Shown: positions 6,115-21,598 of the stretch, piece after piece | Position numbering within the stretch: position 1 is the first letter of the stretch | How the letters are laid out: each line of letters starts with the position of its first letter | Assembly (NCBI GenBank): GCA_017881185.1 | Contig: JADGRE010000004.1 | Span: forward strand, 1-63,282 | Length of the DNA: 63,282 nt | Origin: Pseudomonadota bacterium | GTDB lineage: Bacteria > Myxococcota_A > Polyangia > Polyangiales > JAFGIB01 | Direction: 5' to 3' | Position numbers and translations under genes: made by a program | Notes under the pieces: model-generated | Told to the model about the DNA's origin: nothing | Databases searched by the model: none | Seen by the model: the letters and a program-made list of their open reading frames with translations, nothing else

Positions 6115-8334
6115 TCACTTGGCCGTGACGGTGACGTCGAACAAGTAGCTGCCGCCCGGCGCGCCCTTGAAGCCGTCGACCACGTAGTAATACGTGCCTG
6201 CGTCCAGCATCTCGCTGAGCTCGGCTTGGGTGCCGCCAGCCGAGTCGTCGTCGCAAGCCTCCGGCGCTGCGCCGTCGCACACGGCGCTGCCCCCGCCCGA
6301 ATCAGTGAAGCGGTACAGCACGCTGTCGAACACAGCGTCGATGCGCGCCGCCACGTGCATGGGCATGGTCAACTTGAGCCGGTACACCGCATCGGCCGCA
6401 ACCGAGCCGGCACCGCAGTCTGCGTGGTAGTCGTCGTGCAGCGCGGCCGTGTTGCCGCTCCACAGACCGCCTTGGGGGTCGATGTCGAACGCTTTGGCGC
6501 AGGTGTCGTTGCCCTTCACGGCCACCGGATGCGTGGGCGGCAGCGTCATCACCTGCAACCCGACCGAGGGTGCGGCCGGAGCTTCCACGACGACGAAATA
6601 GCGGCCCGCCGCAAGGTTGCGCACGCGCGCCTTCACGGGCTGGCCGACCTCGCAGCGCAGCTCGGAGCTGCTCTGACCGCAGGTCTTCTGCAGGGCCAGC
6701 ACCGCCGTGGAATTGCCCGCGTCCAGCTGCACGGAGAGATCGCTCGCGTTGCTCAGGTCCAGCACGAACACGGCGTCGTGACCACCGAGCTGGCAGCTCG
6801 TGTCAACGGAGTCACGCAAGTCGCCGAGGTTGACGCTGACAGCCGTGCCTGCGGTCAGTGGCAACGGGTTGTTGCAGTCGTCACCCGCCGGCGGCGGCGT
6901 GGGCGGCAAGAAGGCCACGTTGAGCACGAACGACACCTCGCTCGAGACGGGCCCTTCCAGCACGAGCAGGTACTGCCCTGCCGGCAGCTGATGCAGCCGG
7001 GTCTGCGCGGGATCCGACGACTCGCATGCAAGCTCGGCCGCGCCGGATTGACAGCTGGAACGGACGCTGAACGTGAGCCGACCACCTTCCTGGCTGAGCG
7101 CGGCGATCTCCACGTCTTGCGTCTTGCCGAGGGTGAACGCGTAGAACAGATCCGGCTGGCCCTTGTCGGCGCACGTGCTCTGGGTGACGTCGGTCAAGTC
7201 GACGAAGTCTCCCGTGAACGTGCCGCCCGCGCTGACGTCGCGCGGCGCCGTGCAGCGCGTGTTGGTTGGAGCATTGGTGGGCGCCGCGAAGGTCGCGCGC
7301 AGGACCATGGTCCTGGCGGCAGAGGCCGAGGCCACGACGAAGTAGCGACCCGCCGGCAGCGCGCGCCTACGCAGATCTGCGGGGAAGCCTTGCTTGCACT
7401 CGAGCTCGCTGCCGCGGTCTCCACAGGTCTTCTGCAGGGTCAAGACGGCAGTCTCGGCGCTGCCGTCGGAGAGCATGCCGTTGGCAACGAGCGTCACGTC
7501 TTTGGGCCTCTTCAGCTGGAAGCTGAACACGACGTCGGGCGAGGCCTGCGGGTTGCATGACACCGCGTAGTCGGAGCTCGCGCCTTGCAGTTGCACTTCG
7601 AAGCTGCCGCCGGCGCTCACGTCGAGCGCGTCGCTGCAGGCGTCGTGGGCCGGCCTGCCGCAGGGCTGCTCGTCGACCTGATCGTCGCAGTCATTGTCGA
7701 TCTGGTCGGCACACAGCTCCGGCTTGCGAAGGCCGCGGGTCGGGTCGAAGTCGTCGCAGTCGGTACCCCCTGCGCAGTGAAAGTCGACCTCGCCGTCGTG
7801 GTCGAAGTCGCGCGGCGCGTGGATGCACGCACGCTGCGCCTCGTTGCAGCTGTCGATCGAGCAGGCGTCCTGGTCGTCGCAGGTCTGCGACGGACCCGCA
7901 CGGCAGCCGGTGCGGAAATCACACAGCTCGAAGCCGTTGCAGAACACGCCGTCGTCGCAGGCACGGTTGTCGGTATAGTGGACGCAGTAGCCGGGCTTGC
8001 GACAGCTGTCCGTAGTGCAGGCGATGCCGTCGTCGCAGTCTTGCTTGGTCGCGCAGTGGACCGATCCGTCGGGCGGCGAGCTACCGGCGTCGTCTCCCGT
8101 CACCGCGCCGTCCGTGCGCTCGGGCAGCGCTGGTAGCTCGATGTGCGGCTCGCGTGGTGGCGCACAGGCCGACAGGTGGCACACCGCGAGCACCGACCAC
8201 AAGAGCCCACCCAGCCAGCGGCCCGCGCGCGAAGGCGCGCACGACGGCATGCGCGACGGCGCGTGCGACGCCGACCGACCGACGAGCGACGAGGCTGGGC
8301 GCAATGCAGCTGGCACCCCGGCACTATTTGCCAT
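6115..8334 (-). CDS. Large Cys-rich myxobacterial surface lipoprotein with a MopE-like metal-binding motif and four PPC-like repeats
   Basis: Lipobox-like HLSAC; CDDGIACTTDSC-type repeats; DCDDFDP...ELCADQIDNDCDDQVDE; four repeats of about 100 aa each starting (H/N/D)xC. The start is ATG 8334 or 8250; the track ORF is over-extended. Confidence 0.8.
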   Translation of the reverse strand: MANSAGVPAALRPASSLVGRSASHAPSRMPSCAPSRAGRWLGGLLWSVLAVCHLSACAPPREPHIELPALPERTDGAVTGDDAGSSPPDGSVHCATKQDCDDGIACTTDSCRKPGYCVHYTDNRACDDGVFCNGFELCDFRTGCRAGPSQTCDDQDACSIDSCNEAQRACIHAPRDFDHDGEVDFHCAGGTDCDDFDPTRGLRKPELCADQIDNDCDDQVDEQPCGRPAHDACSDALDVSAGGSFEVQLQGASSDYAVSCNPQASPDVVFSFQLKRPKDVTLVANGMLSDGSAETAVLTLQKTCGDRGSELECKQGFPADLRRRALPAGRYFVVASASAARTMVLRATFAAPTNAPTNTRCTAPRDVSAGGTFTGDFVDLTDVTQSTCADKGQPDLFYAFTLGKTQDVEIAALSQEGGRLTFSVRSSCQSGAAELACESSDPAQTRLHQLPAGQYLLVLEGPVSSEVSFVLNVAFLPPTPPPAGDDCNNPLPLTAGTAVSVNLGDLRDSVDTSCQLGGHDAVFVLDLSNASDLSVQLDAGNSTAVLALQKTCGQSSSELRCEVGQPVKARVRNLAAGRYFVVVEAPAAPSVGLQVMTLPPTHPVAVKGNDTCAKAFDIDPQGGLWSGNTAALHDDYHADCGAGSVAADAVYRLKLTMPMHVAARIDAVFDSVLYRFTDSGGGSAVCDGAAPEACDDDSAGGTQAELSEMLDAGTYYYVVDGFKGAPGGSYLFDVTVTAK

Positions 8335-8424
8335 CACACCGCCTTTTGCCAGCCAGGAAGGCGTACCCAAAGCACAGTCGAACGAGTAACCTGGCGGTGC
8401 AGCGCCTCGCTGCATCGCTTGCTC

Positions 8425-9540
8425 ATGGAGACCGCTCCTCAGCTTCCGCTGCCCCTCGAGCAACTGCCGGCGGCCATCCAGCGCTTCTGCGACCCGAAGG
8501 GCCCCACGCCTGCGCGCATGATGGCGGCGAAGGGCCTCGTGCCCGTCAAGGGCCACGACCAGATCACCATGCTGGCGCAGCTGAGCGCCGATGCCGAAGA
8601 GTCGGTGCGCAATACCGCGCTCGAGTCGATCCGCAAGCTGCCCGACAACCTGATCGGCCCGGCCTGCGACGCCCCGCTCTTGCCTGCAGTGCTGCACCTG
8701 CTGGCACGCACGCTCAAGAACGAAGACCTGCTCGGCCGCCTGGTGGCGAACCCCGCGACGAGCGACGCCAGTATCGCCGACGTCGCGCACCTGTGCTCGG
8801 AGCGCATCTCCGAGCGCATCGCCGTCAACGAAGAGCGCCTGTTGCGTGAGCCGGGCATCATCGAGGCTCTGTACAAGAACCGCAACACGCGCATGTCCAC
8901 GGCCGACCGCCTCATCGAGCTGGCTGCACGCAACCGCGTGAACCTTCCCGGCATCCCGGGCTTCGAAGCCCACGTCGAAGCCCTCGCCGGGCAGCTCATC
9001 CCAGAGCCGAGCGACGAGCCATTGCCACAAGACATGGCGTTCCAGCAGACGCTCGCCCACGACAAGGACGAGAACGCCTTCACCGAGGACAAAGTCGCCG
9101 GCCTCGAGGCGATGAAGGATCAGTACCGCCCGCTCAGTATGCAGATCATGGAGATGAACAAGGCAGAGAAGCTGCGCCTCGCCCTGGTCGGCAACATGGC
9201 GGCACGCGCCATCCTCGTGCGCGATCACTCGAAGCAGGTCGCCATGGCGGCCGTGCAGTCGCCGCAGATGAGCGTCGGGGAAGCAGCCGAAATCGCCAAG
9301 AGCAAAGAGGTGAGCGAGGAGATCCTGCGCTACGTGGGCAACAAGAAGGAGTGGGTGAAGAGCGCCGAGGTGAAGCACAACCTGGTGTTCAACCCCAAGT
9401 GCCCGGTAGGTGTCTCCATGCGCTACATCTCTCACCTGCGCATGGAAGAGCTGAAGATGCTGGCCAAGAACCGCAACGTGCCGGCGCAAATCAAGTCGTT
9501 CGCCCAGCAGTGGGTGACGCGCAAGGAAGGCAAGGAGTAA
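8425..9540 (+). CDS. Conserved hypothetical alpha-helical (HEAT/LRV-like) protein
   Basis: Strong GC3 codon bias. The C-terminal KLRLALVGNMAARAILVRD...VKHNLVFNPKCP block resembles a conserved deltaproteobacterial hypothetical family (recognised by eye). Confidence 0.75.
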   Translation: METAPQLPLPLEQLPAAIQRFCDPKGPTPARMMAAKGLVPVKGHDQITMLAQLSADAEESVRNTALESIRKLPDNLIGPACDAPLLPAVLHLLARTLKNEDLLGRLVANPATSDASIADVAHLCSERISERIAVNEERLLREPGIIEALYKNRNTRMSTADRLIELAARNRVNLPGIPGFEAHVEALAGQLIPEPSDEPLPQDMAFQQTLAHDKDENAFTEDKVAGLEAMKDQYRPLSMQIMEMNKAEKLRLALVGNMAARAILVRDHSKQVAMAAVQSPQMSVGEAAEIAKSKEVSEEILRYVGNKKEWVKSAEVKHNLVFNPKCPVGVSMRYISHLRMEELKMLAKNRNVPAQIKSFAQQWVTRKEGKE

Positions 9541-9549
9541 CAAGGCGCA

Positions 9550-10555: not shown

Positions 10556-10984
10556 TCACTGGCCGCCAAAAGCGCGCACGATCTTCACGAGGCCGTCGAG
10601 CGACGCGGGTTGGCTCTCGAGATCCGGGCTCGCTGGCATCGCGGGGCTCTTACCCACTGCGGCACCGCCGTACAAGATCGTCTTCTTGATCTGCTCGTCG
10701 GTAACGCTCTTCTGCCACGCCGCGTCGGTGTAGTTGCGGGGCTTGGGGTTGAGCGCGGCAGATGCGGCGCCATTGCCCTGGCCCGTGTCGCCGTGACACG
10801 GCACGCAGCGCATCTTGAAGAGCTCCTTCGGGTCGACGGCCGCAGCGGCGGGTGCCGCGGGCGCGGCCGGCGCACTTGGCGCGGGTGCCGCTGCGGGTGC
10901 GCTAGGCGCGGCAGCCTCGGGTTTCGAGCACGCGCTTGCAACCAAGCCAGTCAACGCGATGAGCAGCAACAGATTTCTCTTCAT
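10556..10984 (-). CDS. Monoheme cytochrome c lipoprotein, last gene of the nos operon
   Basis: Lipobox ASAC, Ala/Pro linker, CVPCH heme motif, LNPKPRNYT and a candidate distal Met in AMPA. Confidence 0.9.
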   Translation of the reverse strand: MKRNLLLLIALTGLVASACSKPEAAAPSAPAAAPAPSAPAAPAAPAAAAVDPKELFKMRCVPCHGDTGQGNGAASAALNPKPRNYTDAAWQKSVTDEQIKKTILYGGAAVGKSPAMPASPDLESQPASLDGLVKIVRAFGGQ

Positions 10985-11048
10985 AGTCCGACAATCCTTC
11001 CACGGTGAAACGAACCCACGGTCCAAACCAGCCGAGCAGACCCGGCGT

Positions 11049-11903
11049 CTAACTCACCAAGTCCATGCGCGACAAGCGCCGCGCCGCGAGGGTCGCACAC
11101 GCGGCTCCGAGGAGCAGCGGCCAGCCCACGCCGACCGCGAGCATTAAGCGCGACCCGAGCGTGTTGGCAAGCCAGAAGCCCACCGGCCCGAGCACCGATA
11201 GCTCAGGATCAATGCCGCTCAGAATCGCCAGGCGCGCCGACTCCACCGGATTCGCTGCCGCCAGGGCGAACACTGCCTGCGGCGCCAGGCGCAGCTTCAG
11301 CAGCACGCCGATCAGCGCGAAGTCGTGCAGCGCTGTCGCGGCGAGCCACGCGAGCAGCGCATAGACCGTGGCGCGCTCGGTCGTGGGCGCCACGGCCGAA
11401 AGCCAGAAGCCCAGGCCGATGAACGCGCAGGTCAAGGTGAAGGTCACCGCTGCGCTGCGCAGCACCAGAGGCAGAAGCTGCGCCTCGCCCCGCGCCACCC
11501 CGACGCCCAGCACCACGAGCAAGAGCAACATGAGCGGACCTGCGATCACCAGCAGGCGCGAGAGCACGATCGCCGAGAACCAATCGCCACGCCGGCACGG
11601 CTGCGACAAGAAGAGCTCGAAGAAGCCGTTGCTGCGTGCGCGCACCACGGTTTGGCTCGTGGCGACGAGCGACACCAGCGGCAACACCACCGCCACTGCG
11701 TTGGCCAGGTTGAGCACGACCCGCGACAAGCCGGTGAAGCCGAGCACGGAGGACTCCCGCAGCCCCACCCAGACGAACGCGCCGAATACCAAGCAGTACA
11801 CGCCGGCCGTGAACACGAGCCAGCGCGAGCGCATGGCGTCGGCAAGCTCGAGCCGCAGGAAGGCGGCGCGCGCGGAAACCGGAGCTGCGAGCGCATGGTT
11901 CAT
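11049..11903 (-). CDS. nosY: NosY ABC transporter permease
   Basis: Multi-TM protein with ELFLSQPCRR and ANPVESARLAIL motifs, inside the nos operon; 4-bp overlap with nosL. Confidence 0.88.
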   Translation of the reverse strand: MNHALAAPVSARAAFLRLELADAMRSRWLVFTAGVYCLVFGAFVWVGLRESSVLGFTGLSRVVLNLANAVAVVLPLVSLVATSQTVVRARSNGFFELFLSQPCRRGDWFSAIVLSRLLVIAGPLMLLLLVVLGVGVARGEAQLLPLVLRSAAVTFTLTCAFIGLGFWLSAVAPTTERATVYALLAWLAATALHDFALIGVLLKLRLAPQAVFALAAANPVESARLAILSGIDPELSVLGPVGFWLANTLGSRLMLAVGVGWPLLLGAACATLAARRLSRMDLVS

Positions 11904-12310
11904 GGAGCCCTCATCGCCGGTGCACTGGCAGCGACGGCGCGCTGCATGGCGGTGAAGTCGAGCTTGCCGCTGTCGGCGGCGGCGACGCCATAGCCCATCG
12001 GCGTCTGAAAGCCCGTGGCGTAGTGGGCTCGCCGCGCGTCGACCCAGCTGCCGGCAGCCGTGCGCACCCAGGCGTGCGCGATCTGCGGGTGACGCTCTGC
12101 CACGTAGGCGGCGAGGCAACCGACGTCGTCGAAGTGCAGGCGATCGCCGGCTTGCGTGACCAGCTGCGCCGCGAAGCGTTTGTCACTGACCAACATGTGG
12201 CAGTGGTCGCAAGCTTGCTTGCCCCACACGGGGTCTTGGGCCACCTCGAGCTTGTCGCAGCCCCAGAGGCTCGCACCCAGGGCGAGCACTGCGAGTGTGC
12301 GCGCGCTCAT
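11900..12310 (-). CDS. nosL: NosL copper chaperone lipoprotein
   Basis: Lipobox LWGC, CDHCHM (CxxCxM), FDDVGCL and TPMGYG. Confidence 0.88.
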   Translation of the reverse strand: MSARTLAVLALGASLWGCDKLEVAQDPVWGKQACDHCHMLVSDKRFAAQLVTQAGDRLHFDDVGCLAAYVAERHPQIAHAWVRTAAGSWVDARRAHYATGFQTPMGYGVAAADSGKLDFTAMQRAVAASAPAMRAP

Positions 12311-13218
12311 CGCACCACCCGCAGCTCGGGTTTGTCGTGGGCCGGCGGCACAGCGCTCGCCAGCTCGTCGGTCTGGTACACGGACAGATCGCTGATCGCC
12401 TCTTTGTGATCGCGCAAGAGCCGCGCCACCACGCTCATCTTCTCGTCCTGCGTGAAGGTCGCCTGCAGGCGCCCGGGACCGGCCGTGACGAAGCCGTGCG
12501 CGCGCAGAAAGAGCTCCGCGGCCTGGGCCGGCTCGTGCAGCACGACTTCGACCTTGAAGGCGCGCAGATCCACGAGCAGCTCCGCGAGCGTCGCGTCGCG
12601 CTCCACGGCGCCGTCGCGCAGCTCGACCACGCGATCCACCAGCTGCCGAACTTCCTCGACGCGATGCGAGCACAGCACGACCACACTGCCCTTCTGGCGC
12701 TCGTCGAGCAGCTGGAAGAACGCGGTGCGCGCGGCGGCGTCGAGGTTCGCGGTGGGCTCGTCGCAGACCAACACTTCGGCGTGGGTGGCGAGTGCCATGG
12801 CGGCCAAGAGCTTCTGCTTCATGCCACCGGAGAGATCTCGAAAGCGCGTGCGCGACACCACAGCCAGATCGAGGCCTATGCGGGTGCAGTGTTCCGCGAC
12901 GCTCTCGCCGCGCAGACCACGCAGCCGAGCAAACGCCGTCACTACCTCGCGCACCGGCGCATCGAGCGGCGGAGAGATCTGTGGAATGTACGCCACCGAG
13001 CGCAGCGCCCGCTCGGGATGCTCCGCCACGTCGACGCCGCCGATGGTGACATGCCCCTGCACGCGCAACAGGCCCAAGATGGCGCGCATCAGCGTGGTCT
13101 TGCCCGAGCCATTGCTGCCGACGAACGCGACACGCTCGGAGCGCTCGATGTGCAGCGAGACGTCGTTCAGCGCCACGACCGGACCAAACGACTTGGAGAC
13201 GTGTTCGATGGAGATCAC
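12307..13218 (-). CDS. nosF: NosF ABC transporter ATPase
   Basis: GSNGSGKTT, LSGGMKQK and DEPTANLD; lies between nosD and nosL with 4-bp overlaps. Confidence 0.88.
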   Translation of the reverse strand: MISIEHVSKSFGPVVALNDVSLHIERSERVAFVGSNGSGKTTLMRAILGLLRVQGHVTIGGVDVAEHPERALRSVAYIPQISPPLDAPVREVVTAFARLRGLRGESVAEHCTRIGLDLAVVSRTRFRDLSGGMKQKLLAAMALATHAEVLVCDEPTANLDAAARTAFFQLLDERQKGSVVVLCSHRVEEVRQLVDRVVELRDGAVERDATLAELLVDLRAFKVEVVLHEPAQAAELFLRAHGFVTAGPGRLQATFTQDEKMSVVARLLRDHKEAISDLSVYQTDELASAVPPAHDKPELRVVR

Positions 13219-14570
13219 AATGCCTCAGCTGCCCGCAGCTTCGGTGCGCTGTCGACCAGGAGCAAGCGGCTCGAGAACACTGGCATGGCACGGGCGATGG
13301 CGTCGACCAAGCCCATGGCAACCGTGCCTGAAAACAGCTTCAGCGACGGATGCGCATCGGTGAGCTCGCCCGACAACCGCTTGATCTGGTAAGCCACATC
13401 GCCGACACCGTTGCCGTCGAGATCGTAGCCCACGTAGTCCGAGAAGTAGTTTCCACGGAAGCTCGCCGCAAGCGCGTCGCCGCCACCTTCGACCTCGGCG
13501 ACCACGGTGTCTTCGTGGAAGTCGTTGCCCGCAAAGAACAAGCCTTCACTCGGCCCATGGAAGCGCAGCGCGACATCGTTCAGCGCGAACAGGTTGTTGG
13601 CGAAGTGCACGGGGAACTTGGGGGAACGCGGCGTGCCGTCGAGATAGGTGCCCACGGTGTTGGCGACAATCCAGTTGCCGCTCACTTGCACGCCATCGCT
13701 TTCCTTGAAGCCGATACCCACGCCCGCTGCACCGTGCGAACCCGCGAGCACGTTGCGCTCCACGTGCAGGCGTGAGCTGTACATGACGAAGATGCCGACC
13801 ACGTCGTCGGTGATGCGGCTGTCGCGGACGATGGAATCGTGCGCATACATGAAGTGCGAGCCGTAGCGGCTGTGCCGCACGCTGTTGCCCTCGAGCAGCA
13901 CACGGCGCGAATACCACACCACCACATCGCGCACGTGGTCGACGGTGCAGTGCCGGATCACTGCGTCGTTCGACTCCCACAGCTTAATGCCGTCGCCACG
14001 CAGCTCGCGCTCGTCATCCAGCCCCTGCACGTGGCTGTGTTCCACGACGCAACTCGGGCACGGCCCGAGCGTGATGCCGAAGAGCGTGTCTTCCACGCGC
14101 AGGTTGCGCAGCTGCGTGCGCGCGCCCTTGGAGCGGATGCCGGCGTCTTCCGAGGTGCTGCGCCGACCGGAGTGCCGCACGACCACGTTGTCGACGGTCA
14201 CGTCGTCTGCCTCGATGGCGAGCACGGTGCCCGTGCCGGTGCCTTGCAGCACGGCGCCCTGCGCTGCCCGCAGCGCGACCTTGCGACGAACGACGAAATC
14301 ACCGTCGTAGCGCCGTGCACGCAGCCAGATCTCTTGCGGTCCGGACGGATCCTGGAGCATGCGCGTCAACGCAGCGCCGTCGCTTGCGACCACGGCGCCC
14401 GCTGGAATCGCCTGCGCGACCGGACCTGCTCGCGTCCAGGCGCGGCGGGCGGCGGAGATCACTTGGGTCGTGGCCGGCACCGGGCGTGCGTGCGTCGTGC
14501 GCCCGAGCAGCACGCCAACTGCCAACGTGCTCACCGCCAGCACCGCGGCAGAGACGCGCAACTGCCACAT
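13215..14570 (-). CDS. nosD: NosD periplasmic beta-helix maturation protein
   Basis: GDGIKLW, RYGSHFMY, VGIFVMYS beta-helix repeats and GNYFSDYVGYDLDGNGVGD. Confidence 0.93.
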   Translation of the reverse strand: MWQLRVSAAVLAVSTLAVGVLLGRTTHARPVPATTQVISAARRAWTRAGPVAQAIPAGAVVASDGAALTRMLQDPSGPQEIWLRARRYDGDFVVRRKVALRAAQGAVLQGTGTGTVLAIEADDVTVDNVVVRHSGRRSTSEDAGIRSKGARTQLRNLRVEDTLFGITLGPCPSCVVEHSHVQGLDDERELRGDGIKLWESNDAVIRHCTVDHVRDVVVWYSRRVLLEGNSVRHSRYGSHFMYAHDSIVRDSRITDDVVGIFVMYSSRLHVERNVLAGSHGAAGVGIGFKESDGVQVSGNWIVANTVGTYLDGTPRSPKFPVHFANNLFALNDVALRFHGPSEGLFFAGNDFHEDTVVAEVEGGGDALAASFRGNYFSDYVGYDLDGNGVGDVAYQIKRLSGELTDAHPSLKLFSGTVAMGLVDAIARAMPVFSSRLLLVDSAPKLRAAEAL

Positions 14571-15352
14571 CAGGCCCCGCCTCCAGCTTGCCCGGCAGCC
14601 GACTTCGGGGGTGGAACCACGAACGCGGTCTTGCACACCGCGCCACACGTACCAGCACGGCTACAGGTCGCGCACACGCGGCCCCTCACGAACACGGCGA
14701 CGGCCGACACGGCGACACCTGCAACGGCCATCCAGAAGCCATGCAGCGGAACCGCGAAGGTCATGAACTGGCCAATCTCGCCATTGCCGAAGAGCTGCGG
14801 TGTGAACGGCGGAATGCGCAGTGGCGCGTGTGGATCGAGGTTGTGACCGTACTTGGCCATCCAGTACAGACTGTCGACGATGAAACCCGCGGGAAGGAGC
14901 AGCCCGGGCAAGAGCAGCAACTTCCCGAGCTTGCGCCCCGCGAGCAAGGTGAGACCCACGACCAGCACGCAGATGATCGCGATGCCCGCGCCGGCCATAC
15001 GTCGCTCGAAGGAGGCTGCGTCATCGAGATGGCCCATGCCGATGTAGTGGTTGAGCTCGTTGAGCTCGGCGACGTCGCCCGTGACGCCGGTGAGTGAGAT
15101 GACGATCTGCAGCCCGTGAGGGTACTGCGGTGCGTAGAGCTTCAGGCTCCACCACGGCTGCGAGAACGAAGCAATGAGCAGGCCGATGGAGGCAAGCGAC
15201 ATGGAGACCACCAACATGCGGCGCCAGTCGTAGGCCGAACGCGGCGTGACCACGTGCAAGTGTCGATGCGCATTGGTGTCGCTTGGCGCTTCTTCTGCTT
15301 GCGCTGGCGTGTGCTTGTGCGTGCCGACCGACGCTGGGTTTTGACCGGACAT
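14570..15352 (-). CDS. nosB: NosB-like four-TM protein of clade II nos clusters, with a C-terminal four-Cys tail
   Basis: WSLKLYAPQYPHGL...NELNHYIGM and YGHNLDPHAP motifs; sits between nosZ and nosD. Confidence 0.82.
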   Translation of the reverse strand: MSGQNPASVGTHKHTPAQAEEAPSDTNAHRHLHVVTPRSAYDWRRMLVVSMSLASIGLLIASFSQPWWSLKLYAPQYPHGLQIVISLTGVTGDVAELNELNHYIGMGHLDDAASFERRMAGAGIAIICVLVVGLTLLAGRKLGKLLLLPGLLLPAGFIVDSLYWMAKYGHNLDPHAPLRIPPFTPQLFGNGEIGQFMTFAVPLHGFWMAVAGVAVSAVAVFVRGRVCATCSRAGTCGAVCKTAFVVPPPKSAAGQAGGGA

Positions 15353-15448
15353 GGCTGCTCCTTCAGACGTGGACATCGTACTGCTAGCTGGTCCGCGCAC
15401 TACAGCCGCGCACACCCCGCGCACAGCGCGCGAACCAGCGAACCGAGC

Positions 15449-17443
15449 TCAGCTGCCCTTGGGCTTGACCAGGAAGAAGCCGGCCATCTCGAGATGCAGC
15501 GCCGAGCAGAACTCGGTGCAGTACATCGGGAACACGCCGGCGACATCGGCCTTGAAGGTCACGTTCTCGTGCTTGCCGGGCTCGAGGCTCAAGTCGATGT
15601 TGTACATGTTGATGGCGAAGCCGTGCGTTACGTCCTCGGCTTGCTCGAGGCTCGTGATGTGCAGGTTCACGGTGTCGCCCTCGTTCACCTCGATCTGGTC
15701 GGGTGTGAAGTGCGAGCGCACCGCCGTCATGTACACGTCCACCACGTTGCCGTTGCGAACGATCTTCTCCTTGCCGCCTTCCACCGCTTGCGGGTCTTTC
15801 GAGTCGGTGTAGGGGTTGGTGCCCGGCTCGTAGATCTTGATCGGATGGAGCTTGTCGGCCTTGATCATCTGCGAGTAGTGCGGCTCGCCGATACCAATGG
15901 GCATGTCCGCCAGGATGCGCATCTTCTCGCTGTCGAGATCGACCAGCTGGAAGTTCTGCGGATACAGCGGACCGACCTGGTTGAAGCGGTCGATGGACAT
16001 CTTGTTCATCGCCACCACGTAGTGGCCATCGGGGCTCACGGTGTCACCCTCGGCCGCCATGATGTGGCCGATGTTGTAGTGCACGGAGAGCTTCTCGACG
16101 AGCTTCATCTCCTTGACGTTCCACTTGGCGACCTTGCTCTCCAAGAACACCGACGTATAAGCGTTGCCCTTGTTGTCGAACACGGTGTGCAGCGGCCCGA
16201 GACCAATCTCGACCTGACCGCGGATCGCATCCTTGAACGCCAAGATGGGAATGCCGTAGGCATCCTTGCCCTCGTACTGCTTCTTCTCGATCAAGTCCTT
16301 GATCTTGCTGAACTCGTAGAGCGTCGCGTGCGTGTCGAGCTTGCCGCCGACCACGATCGCGGTGCCGTCGGGCGTGACGTCGCAACCGTGCGGGCTCTTG
16401 GGCTCGCCCACCAAGGTGAGCACCCCCTCCGCGGCCGTAACGGCGATGGGCAACACGCGTATGCCCTTGATGGTCGTGGCCTTGCCCGCCGCCACCAGCT
16501 GCTCGGCCTTCTTCCAGTTGATGATGTGCATGTAGTCCATGTCGTTCTGCGAGGCACCGGATTCGATGGCCGGCTTGCCCTGCAGCGTGCCGCCAATCGC
16601 CATCTCGGTGTTGAACGAGTTGATGAACGCCCAGCCATCGCTCACGAGCTTGCCCGCATCCGCGAGATCCTGTGTGTACGGCGGCAGCTCCACGCCCCAG
16701 CTCTGCGCCACGTCGATGCGGCCCTTCTTGCGATCGAACTTCCAGAACATCGCGAGGCCGCGGTACTTCTCTTTGTACGTGTCGAGCGGCTGGTACTCGC
16801 GGCCGAGCGGCGTCGGGTACTGGCTGGTCTCGATGACGTAGTTGGTGTTCGGGTCGACGAACGCGCCACCGTGGTCGCTACCCACGAGCGGGTTCGCCAC
16901 GATCTGCTTGGTCATGAAGTCTTTGAGATCGATGACGGCGACGCGGCCATTGGCCTTGTCGTTGACGAACAAGAACTGCCCGTCGTAGTCGCCCGCGGTC
17001 TCGGACAAGTTCGGGTGATGCATGTCACCCCAGGTGAGGCGATGGCCACTCTGCGCACCGTCGGCAAGGACCTTCATGCCGCCCGCGCCACCGTAGCCAT
17101 AGCCCTGCCACGACTCGGGCGTGAACACGCCGATCACCTTGAGCAGGCGCATCGAAGGCACGCCAATCACCAGCACTTGCCCAGCCTGACCGCCCGACGC
17201 GAAGATCATGTATTCGTCGTGCTTGCCGCTCGGCGTGTAGGTCTTCAACGCGGCTTCGACGTCGGCCTCGCTGAGACCGCGGGCTGCCATGAGGTCTTTG
17301 ATCGAGCCCGAGGCACCGAGTGCGCCAGTCGCAGCTGGCGGTGCTTGCTGCGCCTGCTCTGCCTTGTTCTCACACGCGAGCGCGGTGAGCGTGCACAGCG
17401 CACTGAGGTAACGCGCCAGCCGACGCGATGTGATGTTGCCCAT
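15449..17443 (-). CDS. nosZ: Clade II nitrous oxide reductase NosZ (lipoprotein-type N-terminus)
   Basis: FASGGQAGQV, GDMHHP, KSPHG, LGPLHT, HYNIGH, EPHY, and the CuA motif CTEFCSALHLEM. RBS CAGGAG precedes ATG 17443. Confidence 0.97.
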   Translation of the reverse strand: MGNITSRRLARYLSALCTLTALACENKAEQAQQAPPAATGALGASGSIKDLMAARGLSEADVEAALKTYTPSGKHDEYMIFASGGQAGQVLVIGVPSMRLLKVIGVFTPESWQGYGYGGAGGMKVLADGAQSGHRLTWGDMHHPNLSETAGDYDGQFLFVNDKANGRVAVIDLKDFMTKQIVANPLVGSDHGGAFVDPNTNYVIETSQYPTPLGREYQPLDTYKEKYRGLAMFWKFDRKKGRIDVAQSWGVELPPYTQDLADAGKLVSDGWAFINSFNTEMAIGGTLQGKPAIESGASQNDMDYMHIINWKKAEQLVAAGKATTIKGIRVLPIAVTAAEGVLTLVGEPKSPHGCDVTPDGTAIVVGGKLDTHATLYEFSKIKDLIEKKQYEGKDAYGIPILAFKDAIRGQVEIGLGPLHTVFDNKGNAYTSVFLESKVAKWNVKEMKLVEKLSVHYNIGHIMAAEGDTVSPDGHYVVAMNKMSIDRFNQVGPLYPQNFQLVDLDSEKMRILADMPIGIGEPHYSQMIKADKLHPIKIYEPGTNPYTDSKDPQAVEGGKEKIVRNGNVVDVYMTAVRSHFTPDQIEVNEGDTVNLHITSLEQAEDVTHGFAINMYNIDLSLEPGKHENVTFKADVAGVFPMYCTEFCSALHLEMAGFFLVKPKGS

Positions 17444-17544: not shown

Positions 17545-17560
17545 AGCAACGGGCATGCCA
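17545..17560 (-). promoter_or_regulatory. Sigma54 (-24/-12) promoter of the nos operon
   Basis: Minus strand reads TGGCATGCCCGTTGCT, matching TGGCAC-N5-TTGC with exact GG/GC spacing, about 100 bp upstream of nosZ. Confidence 0.75.
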
Positions 17561-17771: not shown

Positions 17772-18344
17772 CTACTTGGCCGGAGGCAACAGCACGCCGT
17801 CGATCACGTGGATGATCCCGTTCGAGGCAGGGATCGACGCAATCACGTTGGCGTCGTTGATCGAGAACTTGCCGTCCTTCACGTGGATGGTTGCCTTGGC
17901 GCCGTTGGCCATGCCGAGCACCATGCCGTCCTTCAGCATCGTCGTCGGATAGGCAGAGGTCGTGCAGTGGTACTTGAGCACGTTCTGCAAGGCGCTCAGC
18001 TGATCGGGCTTGAGCAAGCCCTCGACCGTGCCGGCCGGCAGCTTGGCAAAGGCGTCGTTCGTGGGCGCGAAGACCGTTAGCGGGCCGGGGTTCGAGACCG
18101 CAGTCACGTAGTCCGCGGCCTTGAGCGCGGCCACCAGGGTCGTGTGGTCCTTGGACCCGACTGCAATGCTCACGATATTCTTGGGGTCGAGTGGCGGCGT
18201 GTCATCGTGCGGCGGCGCGGGTGCAGCCGCTGGCGGCGCCTCGGGAGCTGCCACCGGCGCGGCAGGCGCGGAGGCCGCGCCTCCGGAGTTGCAGGCAGCG
18301 AGCGTGAGTAGCGCGAGCACGGTGGCGTATCGAACGTTCGTCAT
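17772..18344 (-). CDS. Fasciclin (FAS1) domain lipoprotein
   Basis: Lipobox LAAC, Ala/Pro linker, GPLTVFAPTNDAF and ASNGIIHVIDGVLLP. Confidence 0.92.
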   Translation of the reverse strand: MTNVRYATVLALLTLAACNSGGAASAPAAPVAAPEAPPAAAPAPPHDDTPPLDPKNIVSIAVGSKDHTTLVAALKAADYVTAVSNPGPLTVFAPTNDAFAKLPAGTVEGLLKPDQLSALQNVLKYHCTTSAYPTTMLKDGMVLGMANGAKATIHVKDGKFSINDANVIASIPASNGIIHVIDGVLLPPAK

Positions 18345-18511: not shown

Positions 18512-19033
18512 ATGCTCACATCGATCGGTCGCAAGCCCGCCTCCCCCGAGCTGCTCGATCTACTGCTCGAGTGCCACGGGCGCATTCGCGCGTTCACGAC
18601 CCTGGCCGTGCGCCTGAGCGAAGCGCGAGACGTGCCCGCAGCCGAGATTGCCGACAGCGCAGAGCGCGTGGCCCAGTACTTCGGCCGGGCCCTGCCGCTG
18701 CACGCGCAAGACGAGGAGCTCTCGCTCGTGCCGAGGCTGCGCGGTCACGACGAGCAGCTCGACGACGAGCTCGCCGAGATGTGCGAGGAGCACGAAGCTC
18801 ACGAGGAGTCCGTCGCCGAGCTGGTCGCGTTGTGCTCGGCGCTGCGCGACGAGCCAGACCGACACCTCGAGCTCGCACCGACGCTCGGCGAGACCGCGCG
18901 CGAGCTGCAGGCGCACTTCGGGCCGCACCTCGCTCGCGAGGAGCAGCACATCTTCCCTGCCCTCGCGACCCAGCTCGACGCCAACACGCGCGCAGAGATC
19001 GTGAAGGAGATGCGCGCCCGGCGCAGTGCTTGA
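18512..19033 (+). CDS. Hemerythrin/HHE cation-binding domain protein
   Basis: ECHGRI, HAQDEE, EHEAHEE and HLAREEQHIFP His/Glu ligand pattern. Confidence 0.85.
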   Translation: MLTSIGRKPASPELLDLLLECHGRIRAFTTLAVRLSEARDVPAAEIADSAERVAQYFGRALPLHAQDEELSLVPRLRGHDEQLDDELAEMCEEHEAHEESVAELVALCSALRDEPDRHLELAPTLGETARELQAHFGPHLAREEQHIFPALATQLDANTRAEIVKEMRARRSA

Positions 19034-21000: not shown

Positions 21001-21055
21001 GGCCTACGCTTCGCGGGCGCATTTGCTAGACTCGCGGCTGGGGCGAGAACTGCCA

Positions 21056-21598
21056 ATGAGCGAGCACAGAGGCCACCTACCCAAGGTCACCGCAGCCATG
21101 CTGCGCAATAACCGTCTGTTCCACGACTTCGACGAGTCCGTGCTGCAGGCCTTGGTGCGCGAGCTCCCCCCGAAGGTCGTGAACCCGGGCGACGTGCTCA
21201 TCGCCGAAGGCGAGCTCGCGCCGCACATGTTCGTGGTCGTCAACGGCGAGCTGGAAGTGCTGACACACGGCGTGGGCGAAAGCGCCGACGTGCGCTTGGC
21301 GCTGCTGGGCCCCGGCGACTGGGTGGGCGAGATGGCCATCCTCGACGTGCAGCCGCGCTCGGCCACCGTGCGCGCACTGGCGCCGAGCCTGCTCTTGTGC
21401 CTGACCACGCACGACGTGGCGCGGCTCATCCAGGGGCACGACGCCAAGCACTACGGGCTCTTGTTGGTGAACATCGCGCGCGAGCTGGGCCGCCGGTTAC
21501 GCGTGGCCGACCGCATCATCGCGCAGTCGAGCGCCGCGCTCGCGAAGCAGTACGTGCTGGAAAGCATGCGACCGCCGGCACCGCCCAAAGGCCAGTAG
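21056..21598 (+). CDS. Stand-alone cyclic nucleotide-binding domain protein
   Basis: MFVVVNGELEV, LGPGDWVGEMAIL...RSATVRA; no HTH follows. Confidence 0.85.
   Translation: MSEHRGHLPKVTAAMLRNNRLFHDFDESVLQALVRELPPKVVNPGDVLIAEGELAPHMFVVVNGELEVLTHGVGESADVRLALLGPGDWVGEMAILDVQPRSATVRALAPSLLLCLTTHDVARLIQGHDAKHYGLLLVNIARELGRRLRVADRIIAQSSAALAKQYVLESMRPPAPPKGQ

What the first reader, a model, noticed from the sequence alone, without database searches (positions are those of the whole stretch)
10556..17443. Minimal clade II nos operon with no obvious quinol-oxidising module
Seen: nosZ-nosB-nosD-nosF-nosL-nosY-cytochrome c with 1-4 bp overlaps from nosB to nosY, and no nosR, nosX, nosG/nosH, Rieske or cytochrome b gene. 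No nir or nor genes are in the window. Established: clade II clusters carry nosB and often NosG/H-type Fe-S proteins and cytochromes c. Inference: electrons probably come from a general bc/alternative complex III via the single lipoprotein cytochrome c. The organism may be an N2O-consuming myxobacterium, possibly a non-denitrifying sink.
Basis: partly seen in the sequence, partly recalled or inferred. Interest (0 to 1): 0.58.

Follow-up and report, generated by a model that had tools for sequence, protein, structure and literature searches.

The report
Ordinary compact myxobacterial N2O-reductase operon
This is an intact gene cluster for the enzyme that turns the greenhouse gas N2O into N2, in an uncultured permafrost/soil myxobacterium; its stripped-down layout is the normal one for this lineage, and the genome also has a nitrite reductase, so it is not a pure N2O sink.

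Summary
On the minus strand lie nosZ (Sec-type, clade II), nosB, nosD, nosF, nosL, nosY and a one-haem lipoprotein cytochrome c. Overlaps from nosB to nosY are 1, 4, 4 and 4 bp. No NosR, NosG/H, Rieske or cytochrome b gene lies in the window.

The layout is not unusual. All 66 complete related loci, mostly Myxococcota MAGs, lack such redox genes next to nos, and 60 carry a one-haem cytochrome c. Clusters of this kind without nosGH have been described since 2012 (Bacillus, Flavobacterium), with the same proposed electron route.

Elsewhere the 94%-complete genome encodes alternative complex III, a Rieske/cytochrome b complex, cbb3 and aa3 oxidases, and a NirK-cytochrome c fusion. No Nar, Nap, NrfA, NirS or Nor was found. 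It is therefore a truncated denitrifier (NirK plus NosZ), not a non-denitrifier.

Three leads came up:
- A fasciclin lipoprotein gene directly upstream of nosZ tracks clade II nosZ in this order: 37 of 38 genomes with it have nosZ. This scan had already seen the link in Bacteroidota, and no searched paper mentions it.
- NosB has a claudin-like four-helix model.
- NosB appears fused to NosD/F/Y/L in databases, which points to enzyme assembly rather than quinol oxidation.

The parts
17772..18344 (-). Fasciclin (FAS1) domain lipoprotein, first gene of the cluster, 328 nt upstream of nosZ
   Evidence: PF02469 106 bits; lipobox LTLAAC then an Ala/Pro linker. It is the only copy in the genome at E<1e-5. 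Orthologue-level copies occur in 38 of 201 genomes of the order. Of these, 37 have clade II NosZ and 28 lie within 6 kb of it.
17545..17560 (-). Sigma-54-like -24/-12 element TGGCAT-N5-TTGCT, about 100 nt upstream of the nosZ start
   Evidence: Read. Kept as TGGCAC-N5-TTGCG at the aligned place in same-genus genome G089, in an otherwise poorly conserved spacer. Only 7 of 80 relatives have such a motif within 1.2 kb upstream, against 1.4 expected. A lead, not shown to be a promoter.
15449..17443 (-). nosZ, clade II (Sec-type) nitrous-oxide reductase, predicted lipoprotein
   Evidence: TIGR04246 846.5 bits, cut-off 625. The seven CuZ histidines and the CuA motif C-x3-C-x2-H-x2-M are readable in the sequence. 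Best solved relative is 9f8x at 333 bits. A Cys at residue 24 follows a hydrophobic stretch.
14570..15352 (-). nosB, four-helix membrane protein with a periplasmic beta domain and a C-terminal Cys4 tail
   Evidence: Motifs LNHYIGM and YGHN. 23 invariant positions across 70 homologues, including APQYP, NHYIGM and GH. AlphaFold2 mean pLDDT 87.6. Claudin/TARP-like fold, VIA Z 9-10.7. The tail C-x2-C-x5-C-x3-C occurs in 119 of the 120 closest homologues.
13215..14570 (-). nosD, periplasmic beta-helix maturation protein; its start overlaps the nosB stop by 1 bp
   Evidence: TIGR04247 325.9 bits, cut-off 300; PF05048 94.5 bits.
12307..13218 (-). nosF, ABC ATPase; 4-bp overlap with nosD
   Evidence: PF00005 85.9 bits. 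Position conserved in relatives.
11900..12310 (-). nosL, lipoprotein copper chaperone; 4-bp overlaps on both sides
   Evidence: PF05573 21 bits, below the 24-bit cut-off. Lipobox and a C-x2-C-x-M motif. tblastn finds it at the same position between nosF and nosY in the related loci.
11049..11903 (-). nosY, ABC-2 type permease
   Evidence: PF12679 39.4 bits. 37-71% identical at the same position in relatives.
10556..10984 (-). One-haem class I cytochrome c lipoprotein (NosC-like), 64 nt after nosY; candidate electron donor to NosZ
   Evidence: PF13442 and PF00034 hits, one CxxCH, lipobox plus Ala/Pro linker. Homologues lie after nosY (layout A) or before nosZ (layout C) in 43 of 66 complete loci. 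A second cytochrome c family fills the role in 17 more.
18512..19033 (+). Hemerythrin-HHE domain protein, divergent from the fasciclin gene; possible accessory or sensor gene
   Evidence: PF01814 47.7 bits. The start at 18512 is inferred from the reading. Hemerythrin-domain genes of other subfamilies neighbour nosZ in 14 of 66 related loci.

Best explanation
This is a functional-looking, ordinary compact clade II nos operon of a Polyangiales-type myxobacterium from permafrost or soil.

**Shown**
- NosZ has all its copper ligands.
- nosB, nosD, nosF, nosL and nosY are linked by 1-4 bp overlaps.
- A one-haem lipoprotein cytochrome c closes the operon, and a fasciclin lipoprotein gene opens it.
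- The cluster holds no quinol-oxidising module.
- The genome encodes alternative complex III and a Rieske/cytochrome b complex elsewhere.

**Inferred**
- Quinol is oxidised by one of those two general complexes. Electrons then pass to the membrane-tethered cytochrome c, to CuA of the lipid-anchored NosZ, and on to CuZ, where N2O is reduced to N2.
- NosB, together with NosDFY and NosL, forms the membrane assembly and maintenance machine for the copper sites. It is not the electron entry point.
- The fasciclin lipoprotein is a further periplasmic helper of unknown action.
- With NirK but no Nor, Nar or Nap, the organism is a truncated denitrifier that can also consume external N2O.
For: - Gene identities and overlaps.
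- No NapH/NosH-like protein: best 27.8 bits against a 213-bit cut-off.
- Upstream complexes and oxidases: ACIII ActB-C-D-E-F on C383 and cbb3 on C87; Rieske, cytochrome b and heptahaem c on C55; aa3 oxidase on C3.
- Other nitrogen enzymes: NirK-cytochrome c at 361 bits. No NirS, NarG, NapA above cut-off, NrfA or NorB.
- Relatives: all 66 complete loci have nosB, 60 have a one-haem cytochrome c, and only 2 have any ferredoxin-motif ORF within 10 kb.
- NosB: claudin-like four-helix model, with every invariant residue on the side of the beta domain.
- NosB fusions: among the 150 best NosB representatives, 53 exceed 290 aa. Of 10 scanned, 5 are fusions to NosD (3 also to NosF, 1 also to NosY) and 1 is a fusion to NosL.
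- Literature: the same cluster type and electron route are proposed for Bacillus and Geobacillus (PMC3475470) and for Schinkia, with QcrABC (PMC13274427).
Against: - There is no expression or activity data. No RNA run holds the locus and the organism is uncultured.
- Which complex feeds the cytochrome c is not resolved. ActA of ACIII was not identified.
- The genome is 94% complete, so a missing Nor, Nar or NosGH could lie in unassembled DNA.
- The NosB fusions are database gene calls that I did not verify on DNA. Because nosB and nosD overlap, a single-base error could merge them.
- In Wolinella, NosB is needed for N2O respiration, but its role there is unresolved (Hein et al. 2017, as cited).
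- Bacillus azotoformans N2O reductase is reported to accept menaquinol as well as cytochrome c.
Confidence: 0.7

Rival explanations
1. NosB is itself the missing membrane electron-entry module. It would take electrons from quinol or from the cytoplasm through its conserved histidines and, in this lineage, its C-terminal Cys4 site, and pass them to NosZ.
For: - NosB is present in all 66 complete loci.
- It is essential in Wolinella (cited).
- Heylen and Keltjens raised this idea, because B. azotoformans N2O reductase uses menaquinol.
- Two histidines are invariant.
- The tail C-x2-C-x5-C-x3-C(P) occurs in 119 of the 120 closest homologues, and its end recalls the CX3CP motifs of NapH.
Against: - The model is a claudin/TARP-like tetraspan with no pair of in-membrane histidines for haem. 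No redox enzyme stands among its top structural matches.
- The invariant residues sit on the periplasmic face.
- The Cys4 tail is absent from layouts B and C, which equally lack Fe-S genes. Only 9 of the 150 diverse NosB representatives have it.
- Apparent fusions join NosB to NosD/F/Y/L, not to redox proteins.
Confidence: 0.12
2. The physiological electron donor to NosZ is not the operon's cytochrome c but another periplasmic carrier. Candidates are the paralogous cytochrome c on C298, ActE of ACIII or the heptahaem cytochrome of the C55 complex. The operon's cytochrome would then serve another purpose.
For: - A 46%-identical paralogue lies on C298, among other haem-motif ORFs.
- Two unrelated cytochrome c families occupy the nos-linked position in relatives, so the role is replaceable.
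- My scan found no cytochrome c in 6 of the 66 complete loci.
Against: - 60 of 66 complete loci keep a one-haem cytochrome c inside or next to the operon, whatever the layout.
- Lipoprotein NosC is likewise linked to each nosZ copy in Bacillus.
Confidence: 0.13
3. The organism really is a non-denitrifying N2O sink, and the nirK contig is a binning contaminant.
For: - C182 is a short contig (9.8 kb) in a 410-contig MAG with 1.16% estimated contamination.
- Three same-genus genomes with nosZ (G089, G095, G100) show no nirK.
Against: - C182 has GC 0.659 against a genome mean of 0.667 (sd 0.011). Its tetranucleotide correlation is 0.977, above the median of 0.972 for contigs of that size.
- NirK genes in similarly long reading frames occur in a same-genus genome (G068), a same-family genome (G105) and a same-order genome (G007).
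Confidence: 0.1

Closest known systems
Atypical nos clusters of Gram-positives (Bacillus azotoformans, Geobacillus thermodenitrificans: nosC-nosZ-ORF(4TM)-nosD-Y-F), Heylen and Keltjens 2012, PMC3475470
   Same: - Sec-type NosZ followed by a four-helix membrane protein (NosB).
- A one-haem lipoprotein cytochrome c linked to nosZ.
- No nosG/H, nosR or nosX.
- Electrons proposed to come from a bc/b6f-type complex through NosC.
   Different: - Here the cytochrome c is the last gene rather than the first, and the order is D-F-L-Y.
- A fasciclin lipoprotein gene is present.
- NosB has a Cys4 tail.
- The host is a Gram-negative myxobacterium, and both ACIII and a Rieske/cytochrome b complex are available.
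Bacteroidota clade II clusters (e.g. Flavobacterium azooxidireducens nosZ-nosB/L-nosD-F-Y), PMC9697520
   Same: - Compact cluster without nosGH or a Rieske/cytochrome b module.
- NosB carries the LNHYIGM and YGHN motifs.
- Earlier notes of this scan also report a fasciclin lipoprotein gene in these clusters.
   Different: - In many flavobacteria NosB is fused to NosL. Here they are separate genes, and nosL lies between nosF and nosY.
- Whether the fasciclin proteins of the two phyla are orthologous was not tested here.
Wolinella succinogenes nosZ-B-D-G-C1-C2-H-F-Y-L (Simon 2004; Hein, Witt and Simon 2017, as cited)
   Same: - Clade II NosZ with nosB next to it.
- nosDFYL present.
- Dependence on a general Rieske/cytochrome bc complex is documented there and inferred here.
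   Different: - There is no NosG/H quinol dehydrogenase module.
- There is one cytochrome c rather than NosC1 and NosC2.
- NosZ has no C-terminal cytochrome c domain.
Clade I nosRZDFYLX (Pseudomonas stutzeri, Paracoccus denitrificans)
   Same: - The same catalytic copper sites.
- The same NosDFY-NosL maturation set.
   Different: - The Tat-type NosZ model scores only 421 bits against 846 for the Sec type.
- There is no NosR or NosX; nosB is present instead.

Membership tests
Clade II (Sec-type) NosZ | Scores above the curated cut-off of the Sec-type model, and higher than on the Tat-type and clade III models | tested here: met
   TIGR04246 846.5 bits (cut-off 625); TIGR04244 420.8; NF052460 198.8.
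Clade II (Sec-type) NosZ | Complete CuA and CuZ ligand sets | tested here: met
   The seven histidines (HH, DHG, PHG, LHT, IGH, EPH contexts) and the CuA motif C-x3-C-x2-H-x2-M are readable and align with solved NosZ.
Clade II (Sec-type) NosZ | Sec rather than twin-arginine signal peptide | tested here: inconclusive
   The N-terminus reads ...TSRRLARYL..., followed by a hydrophobic stretch and a lipobox Cys. The RR is not followed by the Tat consensus. Of the 14 relatives with a recognisable lipoprotein signal, only 1 has an RR. No signal-peptide predictor was available.
Clade II nos cluster | nosB next to nosZ, with four helices and the LNHYIGM and YGHN motifs | tested here: met
   The gene starts 96 nt after nosZ. 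Both motifs are present. The model has four helices. The motifs are as given in PMC9697520.
Clade II nos cluster | nosD, nosF, nosY and nosL present; nosR and nosX absent from the cluster | tested here: met
   for D, F, L and Y. No further gene lies between 10556 and 18344. The NapH model, which is related to NosR, finds nothing on C208. ApbE/NosX was not searched genome-wide.
Wolinella-type NosG-C1-C2-H electron module | NapH-like membrane Fe-S protein and NapG-like ferredoxin encoded in or near the cluster | tested here: not met
   Best NapH-model hit in the genome is 27.8 bits against a 213-bit cut-off, and it is not on C208. A ferredoxin-motif ORF occurs in only 2 of 66 related loci.
NosC-type nos-linked cytochrome c | One-haem class I cytochrome c with a lipoprotein signal, encoded in the nos cluster | tested here: met
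   One CxxCH, PF13442 and PF00034 hits, and a lipobox. The linkage is conserved. Orthology to Bacillus NosC or Wolinella NosC1/C2 was not tested.
Alternative complex III (elsewhere in the genome) | Adjacent ActB (molybdopterin-like plus Fe-S), ActC and ActF (NrfD family), ActD and ActE (one-haem c) | tested here: met
   C383: PF00384 with Fer4, PF03916 twice, PF11821 (ActD) and a cytochrome c in a row. The pentahaem ActA was not identified.
Complete denitrifier | Nar or Nap, plus NirK or NirS, plus Nor, plus NosZ | tested here: not met
   NirK and NosZ are present. No NarG was found, NapA was not above its cut-off, and no NirS was found. The only two haem-copper oxidases are aa3 and cbb3. Completeness is 94%.
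Non-denitrifying N2O reducer | nosZ without nirK or nirS | tested here: not met
   NirK scores 361-363 bits against a 296-bit cut-off on C182. The contig's composition fits the genome.
Fasciclin (FAS1) domain protein | Match to PF02469 above its cut-off | tested here: met
   106 bits, cut-off 22, covering the full domain.

The most novel reading that the evidence does not exclude
Two linked readings remain open.

1. The fasciclin lipoprotein is a dedicated, undescribed accessory factor of clade II N2O reductase systems. It would be shared by Myxococcota (shown here by co-occurrence and linkage) and Bacteroidota (earlier notes of this scan).
2. NosB is a membrane subunit of the NosDFY-NosL copper-site assembly machine rather than an electron-transfer protein. 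In this lineage its cytoplasmic Cys4 tail would add a metal or redox-sensing site.
Probability: 0.4. Interest if true: 0.6.

Novelty: new member of a known kind. Interest (0 to 1): 0.3.

Why it matters
Clade II NosZ organisms are regarded as the main biological N2O sinks in soils. How electrons reach the enzyme when NosGH is absent is still unsettled, and so is the role of NosB.

This locus does not change that picture. It shows that a whole myxobacterial NosZ clade uses the compact layout, and that this permafrost/soil organism combines NirK with NosZ but lacks Nor.

The useful leads are three:
- A fasciclin lipoprotein that is gained and lost together with nosZ.
- A claudin-like NosB model.
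- Apparent NosB-NosD/F/Y/L fusions.

Together they give testable hypotheses about how clade II enzymes are assembled and tethered.

Tried and rejected
- **Redox genes in the window or near relatives' clusters.** I looked for nosG/H, nosR-like, Rieske and cytochrome b genes. None recurred.
- **NosB as a known redox fold.** Foldseek and VIA-align returned claudin, TARP, MP20 and DUOXA1 tetraspans (E 2e-4; Z up to 10.7) and generic helical bundles. For helical bundles a Z of this size is only suggestive.
- **Sigma-54-like motif as a general nos promoter.** It is conserved only in the same genus and in a few other loci, 7 of 80. The sigma-70 and terminator scans gave nothing above the shuffled background.
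- **The Cys4 tail as a substitute for missing Fe-S genes.** Rejected, because layouts B and C lack both the tail and Fe-S genes.
- **Similarity between neighbouring gene families.** The two nos-linked cytochrome c families show no detectable similarity. The window's hemerythrin is only faintly similar to the recurrent hemerythrin family.
- **Expression.** No RNA holder is listed for the locus. The DNA holders are permafrost, soil and peat metagenomes.
- **Tools and papers not available.** Sanford et al. 2012 and Hein et al. 2017 are not held and are cited only through other papers.
- **Literature on fasciclin.** Two searches for fasciclin together with nosZ or N2O reductase found no relevant paper.

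Full report
**1. Observation**

The window is contig C208 of a 5.99-Mb MAG in 410 contigs, 94% complete with 1.2% contamination. Near-identical DNA occurs in permafrost and soil metagenomes.

On the minus strand between 10556 and 17443 lie seven intact genes.
- nosZ (15449-17443, 664 aa) scores 846.5 bits on the Sec-type NosZ model TIGR04246 (cut-off 625). It scores 420.8 on the Tat-type model and 198.8 on the clade III model.
- Its seven CuZ histidines and its CuA motif are readable.
- nosD, nosF and nosY have clear family matches.
- nosL is below the Pfam cut-off (21 against 24 bits). It has a lipobox, a C-x2-C-x-M motif and a conserved position.
- The last gene is a one-haem class I cytochrome c with a lipoprotein signal and an Ala/Pro-rich linker.

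Overlaps are nosB/D 1 bp, D/F 4, F/L 4 and L/Y 4. The nosZ-nosB gap is 96 nt, with a GAAGGAG ribosome-binding site before the ATG at 15352. The nosY-cytochrome c gap is 64 nt.

**2. nosB**

No family library has a model for this gene. It carries the two motifs published for NosB, LNHYIGM and YGHN (PMC9697520; sequence). An alignment of 70 homologues has 23 invariant positions, including APQYP, NHYIGM and GH.

**3. What is missing from the cluster, and what the genome holds elsewhere**

No family search put a hit on C208.

| Function | Result |
|---|---|
| NapH/NosH-type protein | best 27.8 bits against a 213-bit cut-off |
| Haem-copper oxidases (includes NorB) | only two: aa3 on C3, and CcoNO-CcoP-CcoG (cbb3) on C87; no NorB |
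| NirS, NarG, NrfA | none found |
| NapA | best 140 bits against 930; looks like an assimilatory enzyme next to a NirB/D-like frame on C102 |
| Alternative complex III | ActB-C-D-E-F on C383 |
| Rieske/cytochrome b complex | ferredoxin-Rieske-cytochrome b-heptahaem c on the 3.9-kb contig C55 |
| NirK | fusion with a C-terminal cytochrome c domain, 361 bits against 296, on C182, followed by a NirV-like gene |

C182 matches the bin in GC content and tetranucleotide use. NirK genes in similarly long reading frames occur in relatives.

The organism is therefore a truncated denitrifier with NirK and NosZ but no Nor, Nar or Nap in the assembled 94%. Within the genus the two genes are patchy. G068 has nirK without nosZ; G089, G095 and G100 have nosZ without nirK.

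**4. Comparison with relatives**

Eighty loci encoding NosZ 62-84% identical were fetched, nearly all from Myxococcota MAGs. Gene order falls into three layouts that follow the NosZ tree:
- A: nosZ-(cytochrome c)-nosB-D-F-L-Y-(cytochrome c)-(fasciclin). This is the window's type; the window sits in a 14-row clade with SH-aLRT support 96.
- B: nosB divergent from nosZ-cytochrome c-D-F-L-Y (Archangium type).
- C: cytochrome c-nosZ-D-F-L-Y-nosB.

Among the 66 loci holding Z, D, F and Y:
- all have nosB;
- 60 have a one-haem cytochrome c, from one of two unrelated families;
- 2 have any ferredoxin-motif ORF within 10 kb, 2 a Rieske-like motif and 2 a multihaem protein.

'Minimal' is thus the norm for the whole clade.

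**5. Literature**

- Compact atypical clusters (nosC-Z-ORF-DYF) with a lipoprotein NosC and no nosGH were described for Bacillus and Geobacillus in 2012. The same two hypotheses were offered then: electrons through bc/b6f and NosC, or the four-helix ORF acting as a quinol oxidase (PMC3475470).
- Flavobacteria have nosZ-nosB/L-D-F-Y (PMC9697520).
- A Schinkia model routes electrons through QcrABC (PMC13274427).
- Reviews list cytochromes and Fe-S, Rieske or cytochrome b genes as frequent clade II companions, but not universal ones (PMC11096178; PMC13685413).

**6. NosB in more depth**

The AlphaFold2 model (mean pLDDT 87.6, pTM 0.80) has four helices and a beta domain built from loops 1 and 3. 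By my count of Lys and Arg residues in the sequence, the positive-inside rule puts the N-terminus, loop 2 and the C-terminus in the cytoplasm. The beta domain and all invariant residues then face the periplasm.

The best structural matches are claudins, TARPs, MP20 and DUOXA1, which are adaptor-type tetraspans (Foldseek E 2e-4, TM 0.3-0.5; VIA Z 9.2-10.7). These values are only suggestive for helical proteins.

A profile search of 1.84 billion representatives finds 1,002 NosB clusters at E<=1e-10. Of the best 150, 53 are longer than 290 aa. Ten of these were scanned:
- five are NosB-NosD; three of them continue into NosF and one into NosY;
- one is NosB-NosL.

After helix 4 the fusions continue into a hydrophobic segment that looks like the NosD signal peptide. 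This is topologically consistent with a real fusion, but it does not exclude merged gene calls. Together with the 1-4 bp overlaps in the window, this favours NosB as a partner of the NosDFY-NosL assembly machine.

The C-terminal tail C-x2-C-x5-C-x3-C (window 14633-14674) occurs in 119 of the 120 closest homologues and is often followed by Pro. Among my loci it is present in 17 layout-A loci plus the window, and absent from two layout-A loci and from all layout-B and layout-C NosB. Only 9 of the 150 diverse representatives have it.

**7. The fasciclin gene**

Directly upstream of nosZ, on the same strand, lies a FAS1-domain lipoprotein gene (PF02469, 106 bits). It is the only copy in this genome at E<1e-5. 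It lies within the fetched flanks in 34 of 66 complete related loci.

In a sample of 201 genomes of the order, matches are bimodal, at >=148 bits or <=111.5 bits (cross-tabulated by hand).
- 38 genomes have the high-scoring form, and 37 of those have clade II NosZ.
- 54 genomes have clade II NosZ.
- In 28 of the 37 genomes that have both, the two genes lie within 6 kb on one contig. The other 9 are fragmented assemblies.
- Within one genus (g14), all 21 NosZ-positive genomes have the high-scoring form. Of the 6 NosZ-negative genomes, only one does (88% complete).

Related genomes are not independent, so these are counts and not statistics.

Two literature searches found no paper linking fasciclin and nos. 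Earlier notes of this scan report the same association in Bacteroidota. I did not test whether the two phyla share one subfamily.

**8. Other neighbours and regulation**

- A hemerythrin-HHE gene is divergent from the fasciclin gene.
- In relatives, hemerythrin (14 of 66), NnrS (9 of 66), and CopD-like, YtkA-like and P-type ATPase genes recur near nos.
- TGGCAT-N5-TTGCT lies about 100 nt upstream of the nosZ start. It is kept in the same-genus genome G089 but in few other relatives.

**9. Mechanism**

Most likely, quinol is oxidised by ACIII or by the Rieske/cytochrome b complex. Electrons then pass to the tethered cytochrome c, to CuA, and to CuZ. NosB, NosDFY and NosL build and maintain the copper sites, and the fasciclin protein is an unknown helper.

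Gene identities, linkage and genome content are shown. The electron route and the roles of NosB and the fasciclin protein are inferred.

**10. Verdict**

The finding is real but ordinary: a new member of a known kind of cluster. The 'non-denitrifier' reading is not supported. The side leads on the fasciclin protein and on NosB architecture deserve follow-up.

Noticed in passing
window 14633-14674 (minus strand): NosB ends in a C-x2-C-x5-C-x3-C tail after helix 4, on the predicted cytoplasmic side. It occurs in 119 of the 120 closest homologues. It is absent from layout B and C NosB, and only 9 of the 150 diverse NosB representatives have it.
   Followed up: partly
protein representatives P0243, P0247, P0268, P0281, P0334, P0342: Database proteins join NosB at the N-terminus to NosD, NosD-NosF, NosD-NosF-NosY or NosL. 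I know of published NosB-NosL and NosB-NosC2 fusions only. These could be merged gene calls and were not checked on DNA.
   Followed up: partly
window 17545-17560 (minus strand): A sigma-54-like TGGCAT-N5-TTGCT lies about 100 nt upstream of nosZ. It is conserved in same-genus genome G089 but in few other relatives. No enhancer-binding protein gene was seen in the annotated neighbours.
   Followed up: partly
window 15449-17443, N-terminus of NosZ: NosZ has a lipoprotein-type signal (Cys24) followed by a low-complexity linker. So do most relatives whose N-termini I could read, 14 of 17. The enzyme, its cytochrome c, NosL and the fasciclin protein would then all be lipid-anchored.
   Followed up: partly
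G000 contig C182:7392-9053 (locus L014): NirK is fused to a C-terminal cytochrome c domain and followed by a NirV-like (FGE/EgtB-type) gene. No nor gene is on the contig. nirK and nosZ are patchily distributed within the genus.
   Followed up: partly
G000 contig C55:1-3880 (locus L013): A short contig encodes a 2x[4Fe-4S] ferredoxin, a Rieske protein, a cytochrome b6-like protein fused to a subunit IV-like part, and a cytochrome c with seven CxxCH motifs.
   Followed up: partly
window 18512-19033 (plus strand): A hemerythrin-HHE domain gene is divergent from the fasciclin gene. Hemerythrin genes of other subfamilies sit next to nosZ in 14 of 66 related loci. It may be an O2/NO sensor or an iron-centre repair protein.
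   Followed up: partly
window 6115-9543 (minus strand): A 1142-aa protein has one MopE-type putative copper-binding motif (PF11617, 28 bits). It lies beyond a TPR gene downstream of the nos operon and did not cluster with neighbours of the related loci.
   Followed up: no
window 21023-21598 (plus strand): A 191-aa protein has a cyclic-nucleotide-binding domain but no detected DNA-binding domain. It lies 2.7 kb from the cluster, after panB and panC.
   Followed up: no
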